Source: Fimbriosthenelais zetlandica (taxonomy: Eukaryota). Taken from it: 64,000 bases of DNA. Below are positions 3,001 through 42,000 of this stretch, piece by piece; the first letter of the stretch is position 1; each line of letters starts with the position of its first letter. The stretch spans positions 14,384,001 through 14,448,000 of the forward strand of contig OZ365113.1 of the NCBI GenBank assembly GCA_977030845.1, written 5' to 3'. Made by a program: the position numbers.

Positions 3001-6000
3001 ATGACGTCAGGGACCCCAGGGCCAGGGCATATAATTCTCATAGAAGTGCCTTGCTGGAGACTACATGTCCTCTGCGTGCTGACCTTTAGCATGTAGTAGC
3101 TGACCCTTCACAAAAGCTGACCCCCAAAACCGCCCAGAGACATGCCTCAAGCAGGTCCCTGTGGAGTAGACCCACGTCTTGCTAAGGCCATCGATTTTGT
3201 GTATTTGATATTTAAATGATATTAACTTCACTGGACACTCTTTGTCTGCAGCGTATTTCACATAAGCCCTCATAAAATCCTCCACTGGTCGGTAGCATTA
3301 GACTCGTTGTGGGCCTTCTCAGATATATTATATTATCTTGAGCATTAAGGCTAGTCCATTGTGGACCCAATGGCTATGAAATATGGATTGCCTTCTACCA
3401 CTGCAGGGAGGGAAGGTCATGGTTTCTAGTGGGTGGGACGAGCTTGGTTTAAGCAAGAAAGATGACTACAGGAGGAAAAACAGCCATCATACATCATGCG
3501 TGCAGGCAATTTGTTGTGGTCAGTGGCAGAGGTGTAGAGATCAGCAATGAATATGGAATGAGAAATACATGTAAAATCACATAGTGATGAATAGACTCAT
3601 GCATCCCTTCAGCCTCTAAGCCAAGAAGTATATTCAGACTAGTTTTACCCTATAGAATATCTCAAATTGCCTTTGATAGTATCTCCACTTCCACATCCCA
3701 ACATTTTTCTTATTAATATTAATATAATGTTCTGGCTTAATTGATGTTGGTTCATGTAAGGAAGCTGCATGCAGATATATATGGTTCATGTCAACCATCA
3801 GCATGGCATGAATTTTGGTGATATATATGATTCACATTGTATTGTGGATGTCACCCTTTTTGACAAGAATTGGATGTACCATGTAAAACTATTGGAAATT
3901 TCCTACTTATGGAGGTCTAATGTGTTTGGCTAGGATTGCTAGCCGTGTTTAAGGGCTGCAGTAGCCGCTAGTAGTTGGCTTGTATTGCAATCATGAAGCT
4001 GGAGCTGGAGACTGGTTATTGATGCATGGGCTGATCCTTGGATTTACGACCCGCTGACATGCAGCTCTCTTCAACGCTAGGAAAGTACCAACGGCTGAGC
4101 TTGAGCAAGGGTCACATCAAGCCATCCGACTGACAGATTTGTCAATGGCAGTGAGATAAAGCAGATGATGATTATTCAAATTGAGACACTAATCAATTGA
4201 CAAATCACTGAATGACCTCTCAAGAGAAAAGGATCCACTGATGTGATTCACTGATATTCTTGCAATGAGTGACATTCAAAGATTCAGATGATTGGCTTGG
4301 TCTGGACCCTATATGGAAATCTGAAAAGGGGTAGGGCTTCAACCTACCTTTTAGCCTAGTAAATTGCGTTCCTCTTATCTGCATTTATAATATATTTTCG
4401 ATTTATATTTGTGACTGACCTTCGGTCAATCCATGGTTAAATTAGCTTCGGAAAATATGTGTATTGTATTAGCATGTATTAACATTTGATTAAAATCAAC
4501 CAAAAGCTATGCATATTCTGTATACGCCCAATACCATTATATCCCATTTTCCTATTATAGTAAAATTTTCTTTACAATCCTCGGATATCAAGGGCAACTT
4601 CCATGTATACGCTAGGCTTCCCGATCACATTAAGCCCCTCTAAGGGATTACCATTTGTCCTGAGACATGCAGCACTGCTTACCATGTTGGGATTTATGAC
4701 AAGTTGTCAGTGGCTGCCCTTCATACCCTAATATAGGCTTATAATAACCAGTGAAGGGCAGACGTGAGGCAGCATGCTAAGGAGATATTAACTTTGCCAG
4801 GGTTTGAACATGCCATAAGCAAATGATGTTCTCCTCATTGAAGGCTTCGTAGACTCGTCTACTTTTACTCGAACATATGTACACGTATAGGGATCTACCT
4901 TTGGTGCTAAATGACCAATATTTAGGATATATTGTTATAATATTAACATTTTTTCCAGTATATGTTTGTTTTGAAATGTTGAGGTATTGTAAAGTGCATG
5001 GATGCTGGTTTTATTCAGGTTAAATGTATCCAGATGATGAGGCGCTCAAAGGGAAAGGTTTGTCATTCCTGCCTGTTGGTTAATAGAAGCCATTAAGTTG
5101 TGTGTTCTGCTTCAGTCTCGTATTATGCCATTGAACATATGAACTTTTTAATTATTATCAATCATCAACAATTATTTATTAACTGATTGAAATCTCTATA
5201 TCGCTTCTACACTCTAAACGCTGCCAAACTTGTTCAGTCTTTTACAGTCATTCTTCGGATTGCTAGATTCACTCCTGAAATTTTTTAACATGAATTTGAT
5301 GATGGTAAAAGACTGTTCTAATAGGGTGTGCGTTCAAAGTGGCACATGTGCATTGCAGCATTTTATCCAGTGAATTGTAGCAATTTAAATCAAAAAAGAA
5401 CACTACACTATTCAATACCAATTTTGATGTGGTTTGTTTTAGCTTCGCTTTACAATCCAATGAAATGCATTTCCAAATTAAAAAGGCGACATTTTGTATT
5501 CCCCCACAAATTTATATGTTCTCCTCATTGCTGCAAATATGCTTTATTCCTCTTGAATCTTTGGAAGGAATATCAATATTAATTAGGGATTACGTCAGAC
5601 TATTTCACGGATTGTGTTGTATACATAAAGCCTTCGCCATTCGAACTCAGGCTTTATACCTCCACAACACAACTCGTGGACTAGCTTAGGTAATTAATCC
5701 CTCAATAAAAACTCGACGCTTCATACCAATAAGTATGCCTTAGAATCAAGGCTTTATGGTTATGAGTAGTATATAAAGAAGGAGGCAGCAGGTCTAATTA
5801 AGGCATCTACATATGGAGGGATAAATCCCAGGCCAAAAAAGACAAAAATATCAGTTACATAGGTATTAGGTAAACGTCCTGAACCTTTAAGGCTAATGTG
5901 TATTTTTATATTTAAATCCTGTTATTCGAACATCCATTTCCTCGGCCTCATGATTTTAACAATGCTTTCTGCTCTCTTTCAGGTCCTGACACCTCAGAAA

Positions 6001-39000: not shown

Positions 39001-42000
39001 ACTGAACATTAAGTTATGTTTCCTTGCAGGCTAATCTGACCTTCGTCTTTGCCAACTGTCTGGAAGATGTTCTCGAAGCTGCCTTTGATGATGACTTCCC
39101 CGAACTATCCTCCCCTCCACCCATCCAAAGCAAACTATGATTCTTCTAATGATAGACCTTACTACAATAGAGAGAAATGAAGTTAAGAGGTGGGAGTCCA
39201 TAGCCTTAAGTTGTTCAATGTTCAATGTTAAATGTTATAATTAATATATATAAGGAATATAGTTCGAGATAAGAGTAGGTTAAGGCGGTACGGGTAGCTC
39301 ATTCAGGAAGGTACCAATGATCGTTCAAGCATCTCCCGATCGTTCAAGTCCCGAGTCGTACGTGGGTGTTGGGTGTGTTGTATATATATTTTGGAACACC
39401 TTTATTTGTTGTGCAAAAGGCAACATATAAAGGTCCCTTAATAAGAACCGCTACCTGAAAATCGGCCATAAAGAGAGAAATCAAGTATGTGAGCTGGCTT
39501 ACGTCCTTTACATCTTGCTCCTGATAGGAAAATTCTGATTTTAAAGTAAATTTGGTGCTTTGTATAAACAGGGAAATATATAGGTCATTCTTAATTGCAG
39601 GATTCCCTATGTACATGTATATATTAGGAGTACAGAATTAATTTACATACATGTAAATTTAATCCACCGTGCTGATGTTAATGAAGTAGAAGTTAGACGT
39701 AGCTTTACCTCGTTGTAGCATTGAATGGACCTCATTAATTCTGTGAATAGAAAGTGACCTCAGGAGACATTTGGTGATAATTAGTTTGAGAATGATGTAG
39801 TAGGGAAACAGATGTTAGATGTAGAGAGAATGGCTCTGGTCTGTCTCTGCTAGTTATGATGAGGTTAATCATTAAAGACGTAACTTGAGTTGTGAGCTGG
39901 GTTTATAACTGGAAGTCTGAGAGAAAATGGTGTAAGATCTTTAAATGCTACATGAAAATAGCCGTCATGATTATAATGGTCGTACCTTGAGAATGTCTAA
40001 TATCAGTAATATAATAGTAATTAAAGATAGCATGTGGCATAATAGACTACGGTATCGATGATTCGACTACTTTTATTTATTATTCCATAATATCTGGGAC
40101 CCAAAATAAAAAATAATTAATCTGTGATAATTTAAATTATGTTTCCTCCTCTTTTCACGAATATTCGGCTTATGTAAATACGCAAATCCAACTTATACAA
40201 ATACAAGTGTTTTAAGCTGAACATGATGTACTATCATCACGATGCGGGGGAGGCAGGTATATCAGCTTCTATTTTTATCCAAATCGTCCATCATTTTCCT
40301 CCATTTACCATCAATAATAGTTGGTCGCTCTATCTCTAATTCAATTTCATATCTGCGCCAAATTATACTCTTACATCTGCCCCCACACTGGAGCATTGCG
40401 AGTAATACATCATTAGGTTTGGACGCAAAATGCGCAGTCTGGATGATGAGGTTATGTTATGGATTGGGCGATGTCGTGTTGTTTTGCCAACCTTTATATT
40501 GTTAACATCATTGGCCTGCATGCCCTGTGGTTGTATCCAAACTGAGCTAAACTGATGCGCCTCACCACTAGGTCCTGTTTAAATACACCATTGCATGACC
40601 GCAGTCATCACCCTTAACACTCAAAAACACAAATTGATGAAGATAAATTATATAGTTTCAAAAATGACTTATATGCCATTGGATAACCCGAAAGACTCGG
40701 GTGTTAAAGAACAAGTCGCTGGCCGTTTTTACTTAGGAGAAAGATTGGGGGTGTTATTTTCATGATCATATATATGTCACCTGGAGACCTTTACTTTCCC
40801 AGAAAGTATGAATTCACGGATTTCCACTATAAGTAGAAATGTCAGAGTGTGCTAAGCGCATGGGGATGTCTCTATATGGAATTTGATGATATAAGCAAGG
40901 GAAATCTGGCGTCCAAATTTATGATGTGGAAAGATGAATGATTTCTGTCGGCCCTATCCTTTACTCTACTGTCATATGATAGTGATAGTTAGACAAAGCG
41001 ATGGAGGAGAGTGAAGGCCTTAGTTAATCTAATTACAGACATGAATGAACTCGTTGAGTATTTTCTCTCAGTTTTCTGAGCTACAGAGCGTTGCATATAT
41101 ATGGAAGACTGGGGCCTCAAGCTATGGTTTGATCAACAGCTTGGAGCTGTAGGTGGGGGACTTCTGTAGAAAAACGTCCCGACACGGTCATCTCTTGTCA
41201 CACAGACGCCCCGGTCTTGTTCCGGTTGCCTCGAGCTAAGCCTTTTACAATCTTTCCTAGTCGGTCATAGTCTTAGAGAGGAAGGTTAATAACTTTGATA
41301 TTTGGAATAAATCGCTCTGATGTTTTAAATGTTTAAACGTAATCTTCTTAGTGAACTTAATTATAAGCTTAATCTCTTTCTTATTCTTTCTCTGTAAGAT
41401 TGGTTTCTATTTAACTAATTTCTTTCCTTTTTCCTTTTTTTCTTTCATGTCCCATGTTTCATTGTCATAAGTGTTTTTGAGAAATTTTCCTTTGTGCGTC
41501 TGATTTAATTTTCGATTGTTTGTCTCTATGCCTTACCTTTGAGTTAGGGTTGTAAATTTATTGTTGACCTGGTCAGTGGTCACATTCAGCCTCCGAATCT
41601 ATTGTTTATTCAACCTGGGCAAATTTCCAGGGCGGACACACCTGCCCATTCATCCTACGATGACAATGACGCATAGTGCTAATTTGAGTGATTTATACTT
41701 GAAATTTCCTATTTGTCATTTTGCTAAGGAAATTATTGCTAAAAACATTGTAGTTTTCATCTTCAACTTTCTCAGATTTCCTCGAGAATAGGACTTAGAA
41801 CATTTCTCCATGTTCCCTCGTCTATTAGGGGCGTCTCTGGTTTATGTATACATGTACATGGGAGGAAAATGTAAAATATTTAGAGGGTACATTTTACTAT
41901 GGGAACCTAGTAAGATTCCCAGATGAAGTACCCAGACTATTGACAATACCAATCAGGAGAGAATGTTATAGAATAGTTCATAACGGGTACATTGAGCAAT

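What the first reader, a model, noticed from the sequence alone, without database searches (positions are those of the whole stretch)
5983..39140. Five genes whose human orthologues all map to 16q, including the intact BCAR1-CFDP1-TMEM170 triplet
Seen: the order is BCAR1(+), CFDP1(-), TMEM170(+), CUB receptor, LRRC29-like(-), LONP2(+). Established (from memory): BCAR1, CFDP1 and TMEM170A are neighbours in this order on human 16q23.1. The paralogues NEDD9 and TMEM170B are linked on 6p24, LONP2 is on 16q12 and LRRC29 on 16q22. Inference: this is an ancient bilaterian microsynteny block with the order kept but the relative orientations changed, since the human trio is co-oriented as I recall. Such retention often reflects shared regulation, for example a Cas-gene regulatory block.
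Basis: partly seen in the sequence, partly recalled or inferred. Interest (0 to 1): 0.65.

Follow-up and report, generated by a model that had tools for sequence, protein, structure and literature searches.

The report
Ancient gene neighbourhood matching human 16q
A 33-kb stretch of an invertebrate (spiralian) genome keeps three unrelated genes in the same order as on human chromosome 16, a clean but ordinary case of a gene neighbourhood surviving since early animal evolution.

Summary
Window 5983-39140 carries, in the stated order and strands, a Cas-family gene (BCAR1-like, +; its 5' SH3 exons lie off the window), CFDP1/BCNT (-), TMEM170 (+), a CUB/C-lectin/EGF receptor (+), an LRRC29/FBXL9-type F-box gene (-) and peroxisomal Lon protease LONP2 (+, ending in SKL).

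Papers confirm that human CFDP1 is flanked by BCAR1 and TMEM170A, that mouse Nedd9 and Tmem170b are neighbours, and that LONP2 and LRRC29 lie on 16q.

The triplet is true conserved microsynteny. LRRC29 and LONP2 share 16q only at chromosome scale, and mollusc and nemertean records also place them on the Cas chromosome.

CFDP1 and TMEM170 are head-to-head 629 bp apart.

A Cas regulatory block is not supported here, because CFDP1 spans only 2,054 bp. The triplet's order in other invertebrates could not be checked with these tools. This is a new example of a known kind and of modest interest.

The parts
5983..8307 (+). Large terminal coding exon of a Cas-family scaffold gene (BCAR1/NEDD9-like). 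It holds the YxxP substrate region, the serine-rich domain and the CAS C-terminal domain. The stop codon is at 8305-8307. The upstream SH3 exons are not in the window.
   Evidence: Pfam Serine_rich 1.3e-42 and CAS_C 8.8e-58. PDB BCAR1 3t6g_B 1.7e-38 and NEDD9 2l81_A 6.2e-16. 768 homologues at E<=1e-10, named BCAR1-like or enhancer-of-filamentation-1-like. 12 YxxP and one YDYV. Acceptor at 5983. Homologues align only from about residue 105.
8308..11120 (.). Convergent (3'-3') spacer of 2,813 bp between the Cas stop and the CFDP1 stop. It presumably holds both 3' UTRs.
   Evidence: Coordinates and polyadenylation hexamers on both strands. CpG o/e 0.47.
11121..13174 (-). CFDP1/BCNT gene, complete coding span in eight coding pieces. 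ATG at 13174-13172, stop at 11123-11121. The BCNT domain is split over the last two exons (within 11333-11437 and 11124-11231).
   Evidence: Pfam BCNT 9.5e-11 and 2.2e-6. ORF pieces. Start and splice context read from sequence.
13175..13803 (.). Head-to-head (5'-5') spacer of 629 bp between the CFDP1 and TMEM170 start codons. Candidate bidirectional promoter.
   Evidence: CpG o/e 0.98 against a window-wide 0.57. Only 2.5% of equal-sized windows reach it.
13804..14585 (+). TMEM170 gene in three coding exons. ATG at 13804. Exon pieces lie within 13991-14233 and 14406-14582. Stop at 14583-14585.
   Evidence: Pfam Tmemb_170 3.4e-24, profile positions 5-67, and 8.4e-17, positions 60-106. 272 representative proteins at E<=1e-3. 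Sequence read.
16194..27007 (+). Multi-exon membrane receptor with about seven CUB domains, two C-type lectin domains, two EGF domains, a transmembrane segment and a long tail without recognised domains. No human 16q counterpart was identified. The 5' limit is approximate.
   Evidence: Pfam CUB, Lectin_C and EGF on exon pieces. Best PDB match cubilin 1.6e-38 and 8.9e-31. NETO2 matched only one of the two pieces searched, at 1.3e-7, and was absent from the other's list.
31236..33880 (-). LRRC29/FBXL9-type F-box and leucine-rich-repeat gene in two coding exons. Exon 1 starts at the ATG at 33880 and codes for MADRLPAE. Exon 2 ends at 33131. Stop at 31236-31238.
   Evidence: Pfam LRR_6 5.1e-25 and F-box-like 3.6e-4, the latter below Pfam's cut-off. 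94 homologues, with vertebrate members named LRRC29. Orthogroup of 32 rows with 99% support that follows the species tree. Splice sites.
33881..34110 (.). Head-to-head spacer of 230 bp between the FBXL9-like and LONP2 start codons. Candidate bidirectional promoter.
   Evidence: CpG o/e 1.05. The 500-bp window starting at 33801 scores 1.39, the highest in the whole window.
34111..39140 (+). Peroxisomal Lon protease (LONP2), complete. It has the Walker A motif GPPGVGKT and the serine site KDGPSAG, and its C-terminus is SKL.
   Evidence: Haliotis LONP2 residues 1-847 map colinearly in 12 pieces to 34111-39137. Pfam LON_substr_bdg, AAA and Lon_C. None of the 120 listed homologues of one exon carries a mitochondrial name, and most are named 'lon protease homolog 2, peroxisomal'. 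Motifs and the SKL end.

Best explanation
This is a compact piece of a spiralian chromosome that has inherited an ancestral bilaterian gene neighbourhood. The window is not human: six genes fit in 33 kb and the nearest named relatives are brachiopod, nemertean and mollusc proteins.

Shown:
- Cas-CFDP1-TMEM170 lie in the same order as human BCAR1-CFDP1-TMEM170A, with TMEM170 on CFDP1's 5' side and Cas on its 3' side.
- A second pair, FBXL9/LRRC29-LONP2, sits head-to-head 19 kb away and is also adjacent in limpets.
- All five have human (co-)orthologues on 16q.

Inferred:
- The triplet is retained microsynteny from the protostome-deuterostome ancestor.
- The FBXL9-LONP2 pair joins it on human 16q only through chromosome-scale (ancestral linkage group) conservation, because in human these two genes lie far from the triplet and from each other.
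- In this genome the junctions most likely persist because there is almost nowhere to break them harmlessly. There are two spacers under 1 kb, CpG-rich and 5'-5', that probably act as bidirectional promoters, plus one 2.8-kb 3'-3' spacer. I put this at about 0.5.
- The expanded vertebrate locus may instead be held together by BCAR1-regulating sequence inside CFDP1. There is no sign of a Cas-centred regulatory block in this window.
For: Gene identities:
- Pfam on single exons.
- PDB BCAR1 and NEDD9 matches.
- Homologue tables.
- An FBXL tree in which the window protein sits in a 32-row orthogroup (99% support) that mirrors the species tree and includes vertebrate proteins named LRRC29.
- LONP2 is complete and ends in SKL.

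Human and mouse order:
- PMC5377257 and PMC10417793 passages. The latter also says the locus synteny is conserved in zebrafish.
- Mouse Nedd9-Tmem170b adjacency.
- LONP2 in a 16q gene table and LRRC29 at 16q22.1.

Chromosome-scale linkage, my tally of identical 'longest_contig' lengths:
- Cas and LONP2 are on the same record in 11 of 19 species. This covers all 11 species where both records exceed 20 Mb; the 8 misses are scaffolds under 9 Mb.
- Cas and FBXL9 are on the same record in 11 of 16 species.
- FBXL9 and LONP2 are on the same record in 7 of 10 species.

Adjacency of FBXL9 and LONP2: consecutive accessions and locus tags in Patella caerulea (KAK6186414 and KAK6186413) and in Lottia gigantea (ESO82780 and ESO82781).

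Promoter-like spacers: 629 bp and 230 bp, with CpG o/e 0.98 and 1.05 against 0.57 overall. The window's maximum of 1.39 lies at 33801.

Context: 5'-5' pairs with spacers under 1 kb are enriched among conserved ancient pairs (PMC3514665 section 7). Linkage without gene order is the rule between phyla (PMC8809688 passages).
Against: - The triplet's adjacency was seen only in this window and, from papers, in human and zebrafish. No other invertebrate could be examined.
- In the one species where both could be compared (Centruroides sculpturatus), TMEM170A-like and BCAR1-like are on different scaffolds, 791,767 against 848,816 bp.
- The triplet and the FBXL9-LONP2 pair are not close together in bivalves. 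Cas and FBXL9 are 108 locus tags apart in Sinanodonta and 1,351 apart in Solemya.
- FBXL9 is on a different chromosome from Cas and LONP2 in Dreissena. FBXL9 and LONP2 are on different chromosomes in the starfish Patiria.
- Orientation is apparently not conserved with human. Human strands are recalled, except CFDP1's reverse strand. This weakens promoter sharing as the deep constraint.
- Promoter function, co-expression and the 3' UTR extents are all inferred.
- The human LRRC29 sequence itself was not in the tree.
Confidence: 0.75

Rival explanations
1. Cas-centred genomic regulatory block. Enhancers for the Cas gene lie within or beyond the bystander genes CFDP1 and TMEM170, so any break would cut Cas off from its regulation. 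That selection has held the trio together since the bilaterian ancestor.
For: In human, an intronic CFDP1 variant is reported to act on BCAR1, and BCAR1 levels fall in a Cfdp1 knockout cell line (passage in PMC10417793). The locus is kept in zebrafish (same passage). Regulatory blocks explain many ancient conserved pairs (PMC3514665 abstract).
Against: - In this window CFDP1 spans 2,054 bp in eight coding pieces and TMEM170 spans 782 bp, so their introns can hardly hold distal enhancers.
- Cas lies at CFDP1's 3' end across a CpG-poor 2.8-kb spacer.
- Cas is a signalling scaffold, not the transcription-factor type of target typical of such blocks (established knowledge).
- Gene orientations differ from human (human strands partly recalled).
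- Conserved non-coding elements could not be searched, so this is unsupported rather than disproved.
Confidence: 0.2
2. Purely passive retention. Nothing selects for the arrangement. A slowly rearranging lineage and very short intergenic distances simply left these junctions unbroken, and vertebrates kept them by chance.
For: - Gene order is largely scrambled within conserved chromosomes, with only rare residual runs (PMC8809688 passages), so a few survivors are expected.
- The target for breakage here is tiny: 629 bp and 2,813 bp.
- Orientation is not conserved with human (partly recalled).
- The wider arrangement is already scrambled in bivalves.
Against: - Both junctions survived in vertebrates although the locus grew to well over 100 kb (CFDP1 alone is 139,815 bp, PMC5377257).
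- The Nedd9-Tmem170b paralogous pair also stayed linked.
- The FBXL9-LONP2 pair is kept between this organism and limpets.
- Conserved pairs as a class show more 5'-5' orientation and co-expression than controls.
Confidence: 0.4
3. The match to 16q is an artefact of loose orthology. The F-box gene would be another FBXL paralogue rather than LRRC29, the Lon gene would be the mitochondrial LONP1 type, or the Cas and TMEM170 genes would be better matched to paralogues elsewhere.
For: - Automated names of invertebrate FBXL hits vary (FBXL2-, 7-, 13-, 14-, 16- and 20-like).
- Invertebrate Cas hits are named either BCAR1-like or NEDD9-like.
- Mammals have four Cas paralogues against one in Drosophila (PMC2927436 abstract in the listing).
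- The F-box Pfam matches are below the curated cut-off.
Against: - The FBXL tree gives one orthogroup (99% support) that follows the species tree and holds the Callorhinchus and Camelus proteins named LRRC29. Scores drop from 1e-38 to 1e-24 beyond it.
- None of the 120 listed Lon hits has a mitochondrial name, identities are 67-84%, and the gene ends in SKL.
- Pro-orthology of Cas and TMEM170 does not remove the 16q match. It adds the 6p24 pair, which is itself linked.
Confidence: 0.05

Closest known systems
[quoted passage not shown]
   Same: The same three gene families are in the same order, with TMEM170 on CFDP1's 5' side and the Cas gene on its 3' side (for human; for the window).
   Different: - The window's trio occupies about 8.6 kb (5983-14585, without the off-window Cas 5' exons). 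Human CFDP1 alone is 139,815 bp.
- Here CFDP1 is antiparallel to both neighbours. In human all three are recalled as co-oriented, and only CFDP1's reverse strand was seen in print.
- Given those recalled strands, at least two single-gene inversions separate the two arrangements (inference).
Conserved ancient microsyntenic pairs of Irimia et al. 2012 (PMC3514665)
   Same: Unrelated genes are kept adjacent over more than 600 million years. There are two 5'-5' pairs with spacers under 1 kb, the signature that paper links to bidirectional promoters.
   Different: None of the five gene names occurs in that paper's main text. Its pair lists are in supplements I could not open, so membership in the published catalogue is unknown. 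Co-expression was not tested here.
Ancestral linkage groups / conserved macrosynteny (Simakov et al. 2022, PMC8809688)
   Same: Cas, FBXL9 and LONP2 share a chromosome in most chromosome-scale mollusc records and in one nemertean record, and all are on human 16q, without conserved order.
   Different: In the window they are packed into 33 kb. Which linkage group they belong to was not determined.
Genomic regulatory blocks (a developmental target gene plus bystander genes that carry its enhancers)
   Same: In human, a variant inside CFDP1 is reported to act on BCAR1 (passage).
   Different: The window's bystander candidates are too small to carry distal enhancers. The target is not a developmental transcription factor. 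No conserved non-coding elements were tested.

Membership tests
Cas scaffold family (BCAR1/NEDD9/EFS/CASS4) | N-terminal SH3 domain | tested here: inconclusive
   No SH3-like exon in 1-5900. Homologues with SH3 align only from residue about 105-110. The exon presumably lies upstream of the window.
Cas scaffold family (BCAR1/NEDD9/EFS/CASS4) | Substrate region with many YxxP motifs, a serine-rich four-helix domain and a CAS C-terminal domain | tested here: met
   12 YxxP and one YDYV (the meaning of these motifs is recalled). Serine_rich 1.3e-42 and CAS_C 8.8e-58. BCAR1 and NEDD9 structures matched.
BCNT / CFDP1 | BCNT domain at the C-terminus, after an acidic region | tested here: met
   BCNT profile positions 22-50 and 51-74 of 75 on the last two exons, directly before the stop. 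Acidic N-terminal pieces.
TMEM170 | Tmemb_170 domain over nearly the whole short protein | tested here: met
   Profile positions 5-67 and 60-106 of 106 on two exons, both above the curated cut-off.
LRRC29 / FBXL9 | F-box followed by cysteine-containing leucine-rich repeats | tested here: met
   LRR_6 5.1e-25. F-box-like 3.6e-4 is below the cut-off because the box is split by an intron.
LRRC29 / FBXL9 | Groups with vertebrate LRRC29 rather than with other FBXL paralogues | tested here: met
   32-row orthogroup with 99% support that includes Callorhinchus and Camelus LRRC29. Score gap beyond it. Human LRRC29 and the other human FBXL proteins were not in the tree.
LONP2 (peroxisomal Lon) | Lon N domain, AAA+ module, and Lon protease domain with its catalytic serine | tested here: met
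   Pfam on exons. GPPGVGKT and KDGPSAG. Colinear with Haliotis LONP2 residues 1-847.
LONP2 (peroxisomal Lon) | C-terminal peroxisomal targeting signal, and closer to LONP2 than to mitochondrial LONP1 | tested here: met
   Ends in SKL. Listed homologues are named peroxisomal at 67-84% identity, none mitochondrial. In PDB, human LONP1 scores below bacterial Lon.
Conserved ancient microsynteny | Orthologues adjacent in at least two distant lineages | tested here: met
   Window adjacency. Human adjacency from paper passages. FBXL9-LONP2 adjacent here and in two limpets.
Conserved ancient microsynteny | The triplet recurs in further phyla beyond the chance expectation | not testable with these tools
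   No eukaryotic genome collection was available. The TMEM170 route gave nothing usable.
Bidirectional-promoter gene pair | 5'-5' orientation with a spacer under 1 kb | tested here: met
   629 bp for CFDP1/TMEM170 and 230 bp for FBXL9/LONP2. Both are CpG-rich.
Bidirectional-promoter gene pair | Divergent transcription from the spacer and correlated expression | not testable with these tools
   No expression data were available.
Genomic regulatory block | Conserved non-coding enhancers of the target gene inside bystander genes | not testable with these tools
   No related genomes to align. Available intron space is very small, which argues against it.

The most novel reading that the evidence does not exclude
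Cas-CFDP1-TMEM170 is an urbilaterian three-gene unit kept by selection through cis-regulatory entanglement. In compact genomes this would work through a shared CFDP1/TMEM170 promoter and abutting Cas/CFDP1 3' ends. In vertebrates it would work through BCAR1 enhancers inside CFDP1. On this reading, the regulatory coupling behind the human BCAR1-CFDP1-TMEM170A disease locus is more than 550 million years old. FBXL9-LONP2 would be a second ancient bidirectional pair that vertebrates broke apart.
Probability: 0.3. Interest if true: 0.45.

Novelty: new member of a known kind. Interest (0 to 1): 0.3.

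Why it matters
If the trio is kept by constraint, the human BCAR1-CFDP1-TMEM170A locus gains an evolutionary argument that its genes are regulated together. [quoted passage not shown] A compact invertebrate version of only 8.6 kb would be a convenient model for dissecting that coupling.

The FBXL9-LONP2 head-to-head pair is a candidate for a conserved bidirectional promoter linking a ubiquitin-ligase adaptor and a peroxisomal protease. Otherwise the finding is one more data point for the known pattern: chromosome-scale linkage is conserved, while local gene order mostly is not.

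Tried and rejected
I went on with single ORF pieces.

2. SH3 exon of the Cas gene: motif search, ORF listing and tblastn with three SH3-bearing homologues found nothing in the window.

3. Cross-species position of TMEM170:
- A search of protein representatives with one TMEM170 exon gave 272 hits.
- I looked up 20 of the best 150. Only 4 carried names: Centruroides, Timema, Rhipicephalus and Aquatica.
- Only Centruroides sculpturatus overlapped the Cas table, and there the two genes are on different sub-megabase scaffolds. No usable synteny came out of this.
- CFDP1 exons were too short or too low in complexity to try.

4. The CUB receptor as a relative of NETO2. NETO2 lies near LONP2 in the human 16q table. 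I rejected the idea: NETO2 is a weak hit (1.3e-7) for one of the two receptor pieces searched and is absent from the other's list, far behind cubilin, neuropilins and MASPs.

5. Downstream genes:
- 10 ORFs in 41.8-63.6 kb had no Pfam match.
- The 518-aa ORF had no Atlas hit.
- A codon-usage score singled out only that ORF and did not separate known exons well.

6. No Rfam family, tRNA or tandem repeat was found in the window.

7. Literature:
- 'microsynteny' with CFDP1 gave 0 papers.
- 'microsynten' with TMEM170 gave 0 papers.
- 'microsynten' with BCAR1 gave 1 paper, on a fish sex-determination genome.
- LONP2 with LRRC29 gave 1 paper, on lymphoma cell lines.
- Of the 41 papers holding at least 3 of the 4 terms, none of the 20 listed contains 'microsynteny'.

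8. Not used:
- The genome-contig collection, because it holds only bacteria and archaea.
- The metagenome and viral collections, which were closed.
- Supplementary tables of the microsynteny papers, which were closed and may already list these pairs.

Full report
**What is there**

The window has no N, a G+C content of 0.34-0.49, and strong CpG depletion (observed/expected 0.57). It is not human. Six genes fit into 33,158 bp, and the nearest named relatives of its proteins are brachiopod, nemertean and mollusc sequences.

**Gene by gene**

- **Cas family, + strand.** One large exon starts at a TTTCAG acceptor at 5983 and stops at 8305-8307.
  - Pfam gives Serine_rich 1.3e-42 and CAS_C 8.8e-58.
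  - The exon has 12 YxxP motifs and one YDYV.
  - It matches the solved BCAR1 C-terminal domain (1.7e-38) and the NEDD9 serine-rich domain (6.2e-16).
  - Of 8,000 scored candidates, 768 have E<=1e-10. Named ones are called BCAR1-like or enhancer-of-filamentation-1-like. This fits a single invertebrate gene that is co-orthologous to the four mammalian paralogues (PMC2927436, abstract seen in the listing).
  - The SH3 exons are not in the window.
- **CFDP1/BCNT, - strand.** The ATG is at 13174 and the stop at 11121-11123, with eight coding pieces in 2,054 bp. The BCNT domain lies on the last two exons.
- **TMEM170, + strand.** It runs from 13804 to 14585. Tmemb_170 profile positions 5-106 are covered by two exons.
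- **Receptor, + strand, about 16.2-27.0 kb.** It carries CUB, C-type lectin and EGF modules.
  - Nine of the ten further pieces scanned had no family.
  - Its CUB domains resemble cubilin best. NETO2, a 16q12 gene, is a weak hit for one of the two pieces searched and is absent from the other's list.
  - I found no 16q counterpart.
- **F-box/LRR gene, - strand.** The ATG is at 33880 and the stop at 31236-31238, in two exons.
  - 94 of 7,992 scored candidates have E<=1e-10. They include proteins named LRRC29 (Callorhinchus, Camelus, Mactra) and 'F-box/leucine-rich repeat protein 9'.
  - I built a 40-row tree from those hits, choosing the 39 added rows by hand and leaving the other 55 hits out. 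It gives a 32-row orthogroup with 99% support. Inside it are a deuterostome clade (96%) holding the LRRC29-named vertebrates, a mollusc clade (99%), and a separate clade of the window plus five unnamed relatives (99%).
  - This was a quick search with SH-aLRT support only, and the tool flagged long outgroup branches.
- **LONP2, + strand, 34111-39140.**
  - Haliotis LONP2 residues 1-847 map colinearly in 12 pieces.
  - Pfam matched 6 of the 10 pieces scanned.
  - One exon searched against longer proteins gave 7,955 hits. None of the 120 listed has a mitochondrial name, and most read 'lon protease homolog 2, peroxisomal' at 67-84% identity.
  - The protein ends in SKL.

- Human CFDP1 is flanked by BCAR1 and TMEM170A (passages in PMC5377257 and PMC10417793).
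- The latter paper also says CFDP1 is on the reverse strand and that the locus synteny is conserved in zebrafish.
- Mouse Nedd9 and Tmem170b are listed as neighbours (PMC3723895 passage).
- LONP2 appears in the gene table of a paper on a de novo 16q copy-number variant (PMC2806267 passage).
- LRRC29 is an F-box gene at 16q22.1 (PMC1410740 passages).
- The strands of human BCAR1 and TMEM170A are only recalled.

**What kind of conservation**

The triplet is real microsynteny. It has the same three families in the same order, with TMEM170 at CFDP1's 5' side and Cas at its 3' side in both genomes. In the window CFDP1 is antiparallel to both neighbours. If the recalled human strands are right, at least two single-gene inversions separate the arrangements.

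LRRC29 and LONP2 are a different matter. In human they lie in other 16q bands. To see how they behave elsewhere, I used identical 'longest_contig' lengths as a fingerprint of the same sequence record. This is my own tally from the tables.

| Gene pair | Same record | Notes |
|---|---|---|
| Cas and LONP2 | 11 of 19 species | All 11 species where both records exceed 20 Mb. The 8 misses are scaffolds under 9 Mb. |
| Cas and FBXL9 | 11 of 16 species | Includes the nemertean Lineus. Four of the misses are small scaffolds and one is chromosome-scale (Dreissena). |
| FBXL9 and LONP2 | 7 of 10 species | Misses are Mizuhopecten, Dreissena and the starfish Patiria. |

These species are related, so the counts are not independent events. 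Cas and FBXL9 are 108 locus tags apart in Sinanodonta and 1,351 apart in Solemya. This is the known pattern of linkage kept without gene order (PMC8809688 passages).

**A second conserved pair**

FBXL9 and LONP2 carry consecutive accessions and locus tags in Patella caerulea, and consecutive accessions in Lottia gigantea. So their adjacency is shared between limpets and the window's organism.

In the window they are head-to-head with 230 bp between the start codons. The 500-bp window starting at 33801 has the highest CpG observed/expected ratio of the whole 64 kb, at 1.39.

CFDP1 and TMEM170 are head-to-head with a 629-bp spacer. Its CpG ratio is 0.98, and only 2.5% of equal-sized windows reach that.

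Divergent pairs with spacers under 1 kb are the class that Irimia et al. link to bidirectional promoters and find enriched among ancient conserved pairs (PMC3514665: abstract and section 7 read).

**Mechanism**

Shown: the order, strands, spacings and CpG pattern. Inferred: that the two spacers are shared promoters, and that such compact junctions are hard to break without harm.

CFDP1 and TMEM170 are too small to house distal enhancers, and orientation is not conserved. In vertebrates, however, a variant inside CFDP1 is reported to act on BCAR1. Passive retention remains a serious rival.

**Limits**

- The triplet's order in other invertebrates, which is the decisive test, could not be checked. 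No eukaryotic genome collection was on hand.
- The TMEM170 route through representative proteins led nowhere. Its one comparable species, a scorpion, has the two genes on different small scaffolds.
- None of the five gene names occurs in the main text of PMC3514665. Searches pairing them with 'microsynteny' found nothing relevant.
- The published pair lists are in supplements I could not open, so this block may already be catalogued.

**Verdict**

This is a new example of a known kind and of modest interest.

Noticed in passing
window 46358-47914 (+): An open frame of 518 codons. It is very acidic and serine-rich, with a hydrophobic stretch near its end (possible tail anchor), and sits in a locally G+C-richer region. 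It has by far the highest codon-usage score outside the six genes. It has no Pfam family and no Atlas look-alike. It is likely a seventh gene of unknown family, so whether the 16q-like block extends this far is unknown.
   Followed up: partly
window about 45980-46012: A run of about eleven ACC/CCA triplets just upstream of the 518-codon frame. It reads as poly-Thr, poly-Pro or poly-His depending on frame. It fell below the tandem-repeat score threshold used.
   Followed up: no
window 51500-52300, 62400-63000 and about 40000-40500: Further CpG-rich spots (observed/expected 1.05-1.10 in 500-bp windows) with no recognised gene beside them. The 39-64 kb part otherwise looks gene-poor. They may be promoters of unrecognised small-exon genes.
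   Followed up: no
window 1-5982: This is the tail of an intron at least 5.98 kb long in the Cas gene. The SH3-coding exons lie beyond the window's start, so this is by far the longest intron seen in an otherwise very compact region.
   Followed up: yes
window 14600-16200: The stretch between TMEM170 and the CUB receptor is also CpG-rich (0.89 overall, with peaks of 1.05-1.07 at 14701 and 15301). It may be the receptor's promoter. The receptor's first exon and signal peptide were not pinned down.
   Followed up: no
window 16194-27007 compared with human 16q12: The human 16q table that lists LONP2 also lists the CUB-domain gene NETO2 about 1.2 Mb away. The window's CUB receptor sits between the triplet and LONP2 but shows only weak, non-specific similarity to NETO2. 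This is probably coincidence.
   Followed up: yes
homologue tables; tree: For both the Cas exon and the F-box gene, the closest relatives (84%, 64-68% and 59-61% identity) are all unnamed records. In the F-box tree the window falls outside the mollusc clade and apart from the nemertean. The source is therefore a spiralian lineage with no annotated close relative in these sets. Its phylum was not determined.
   Followed up: partly
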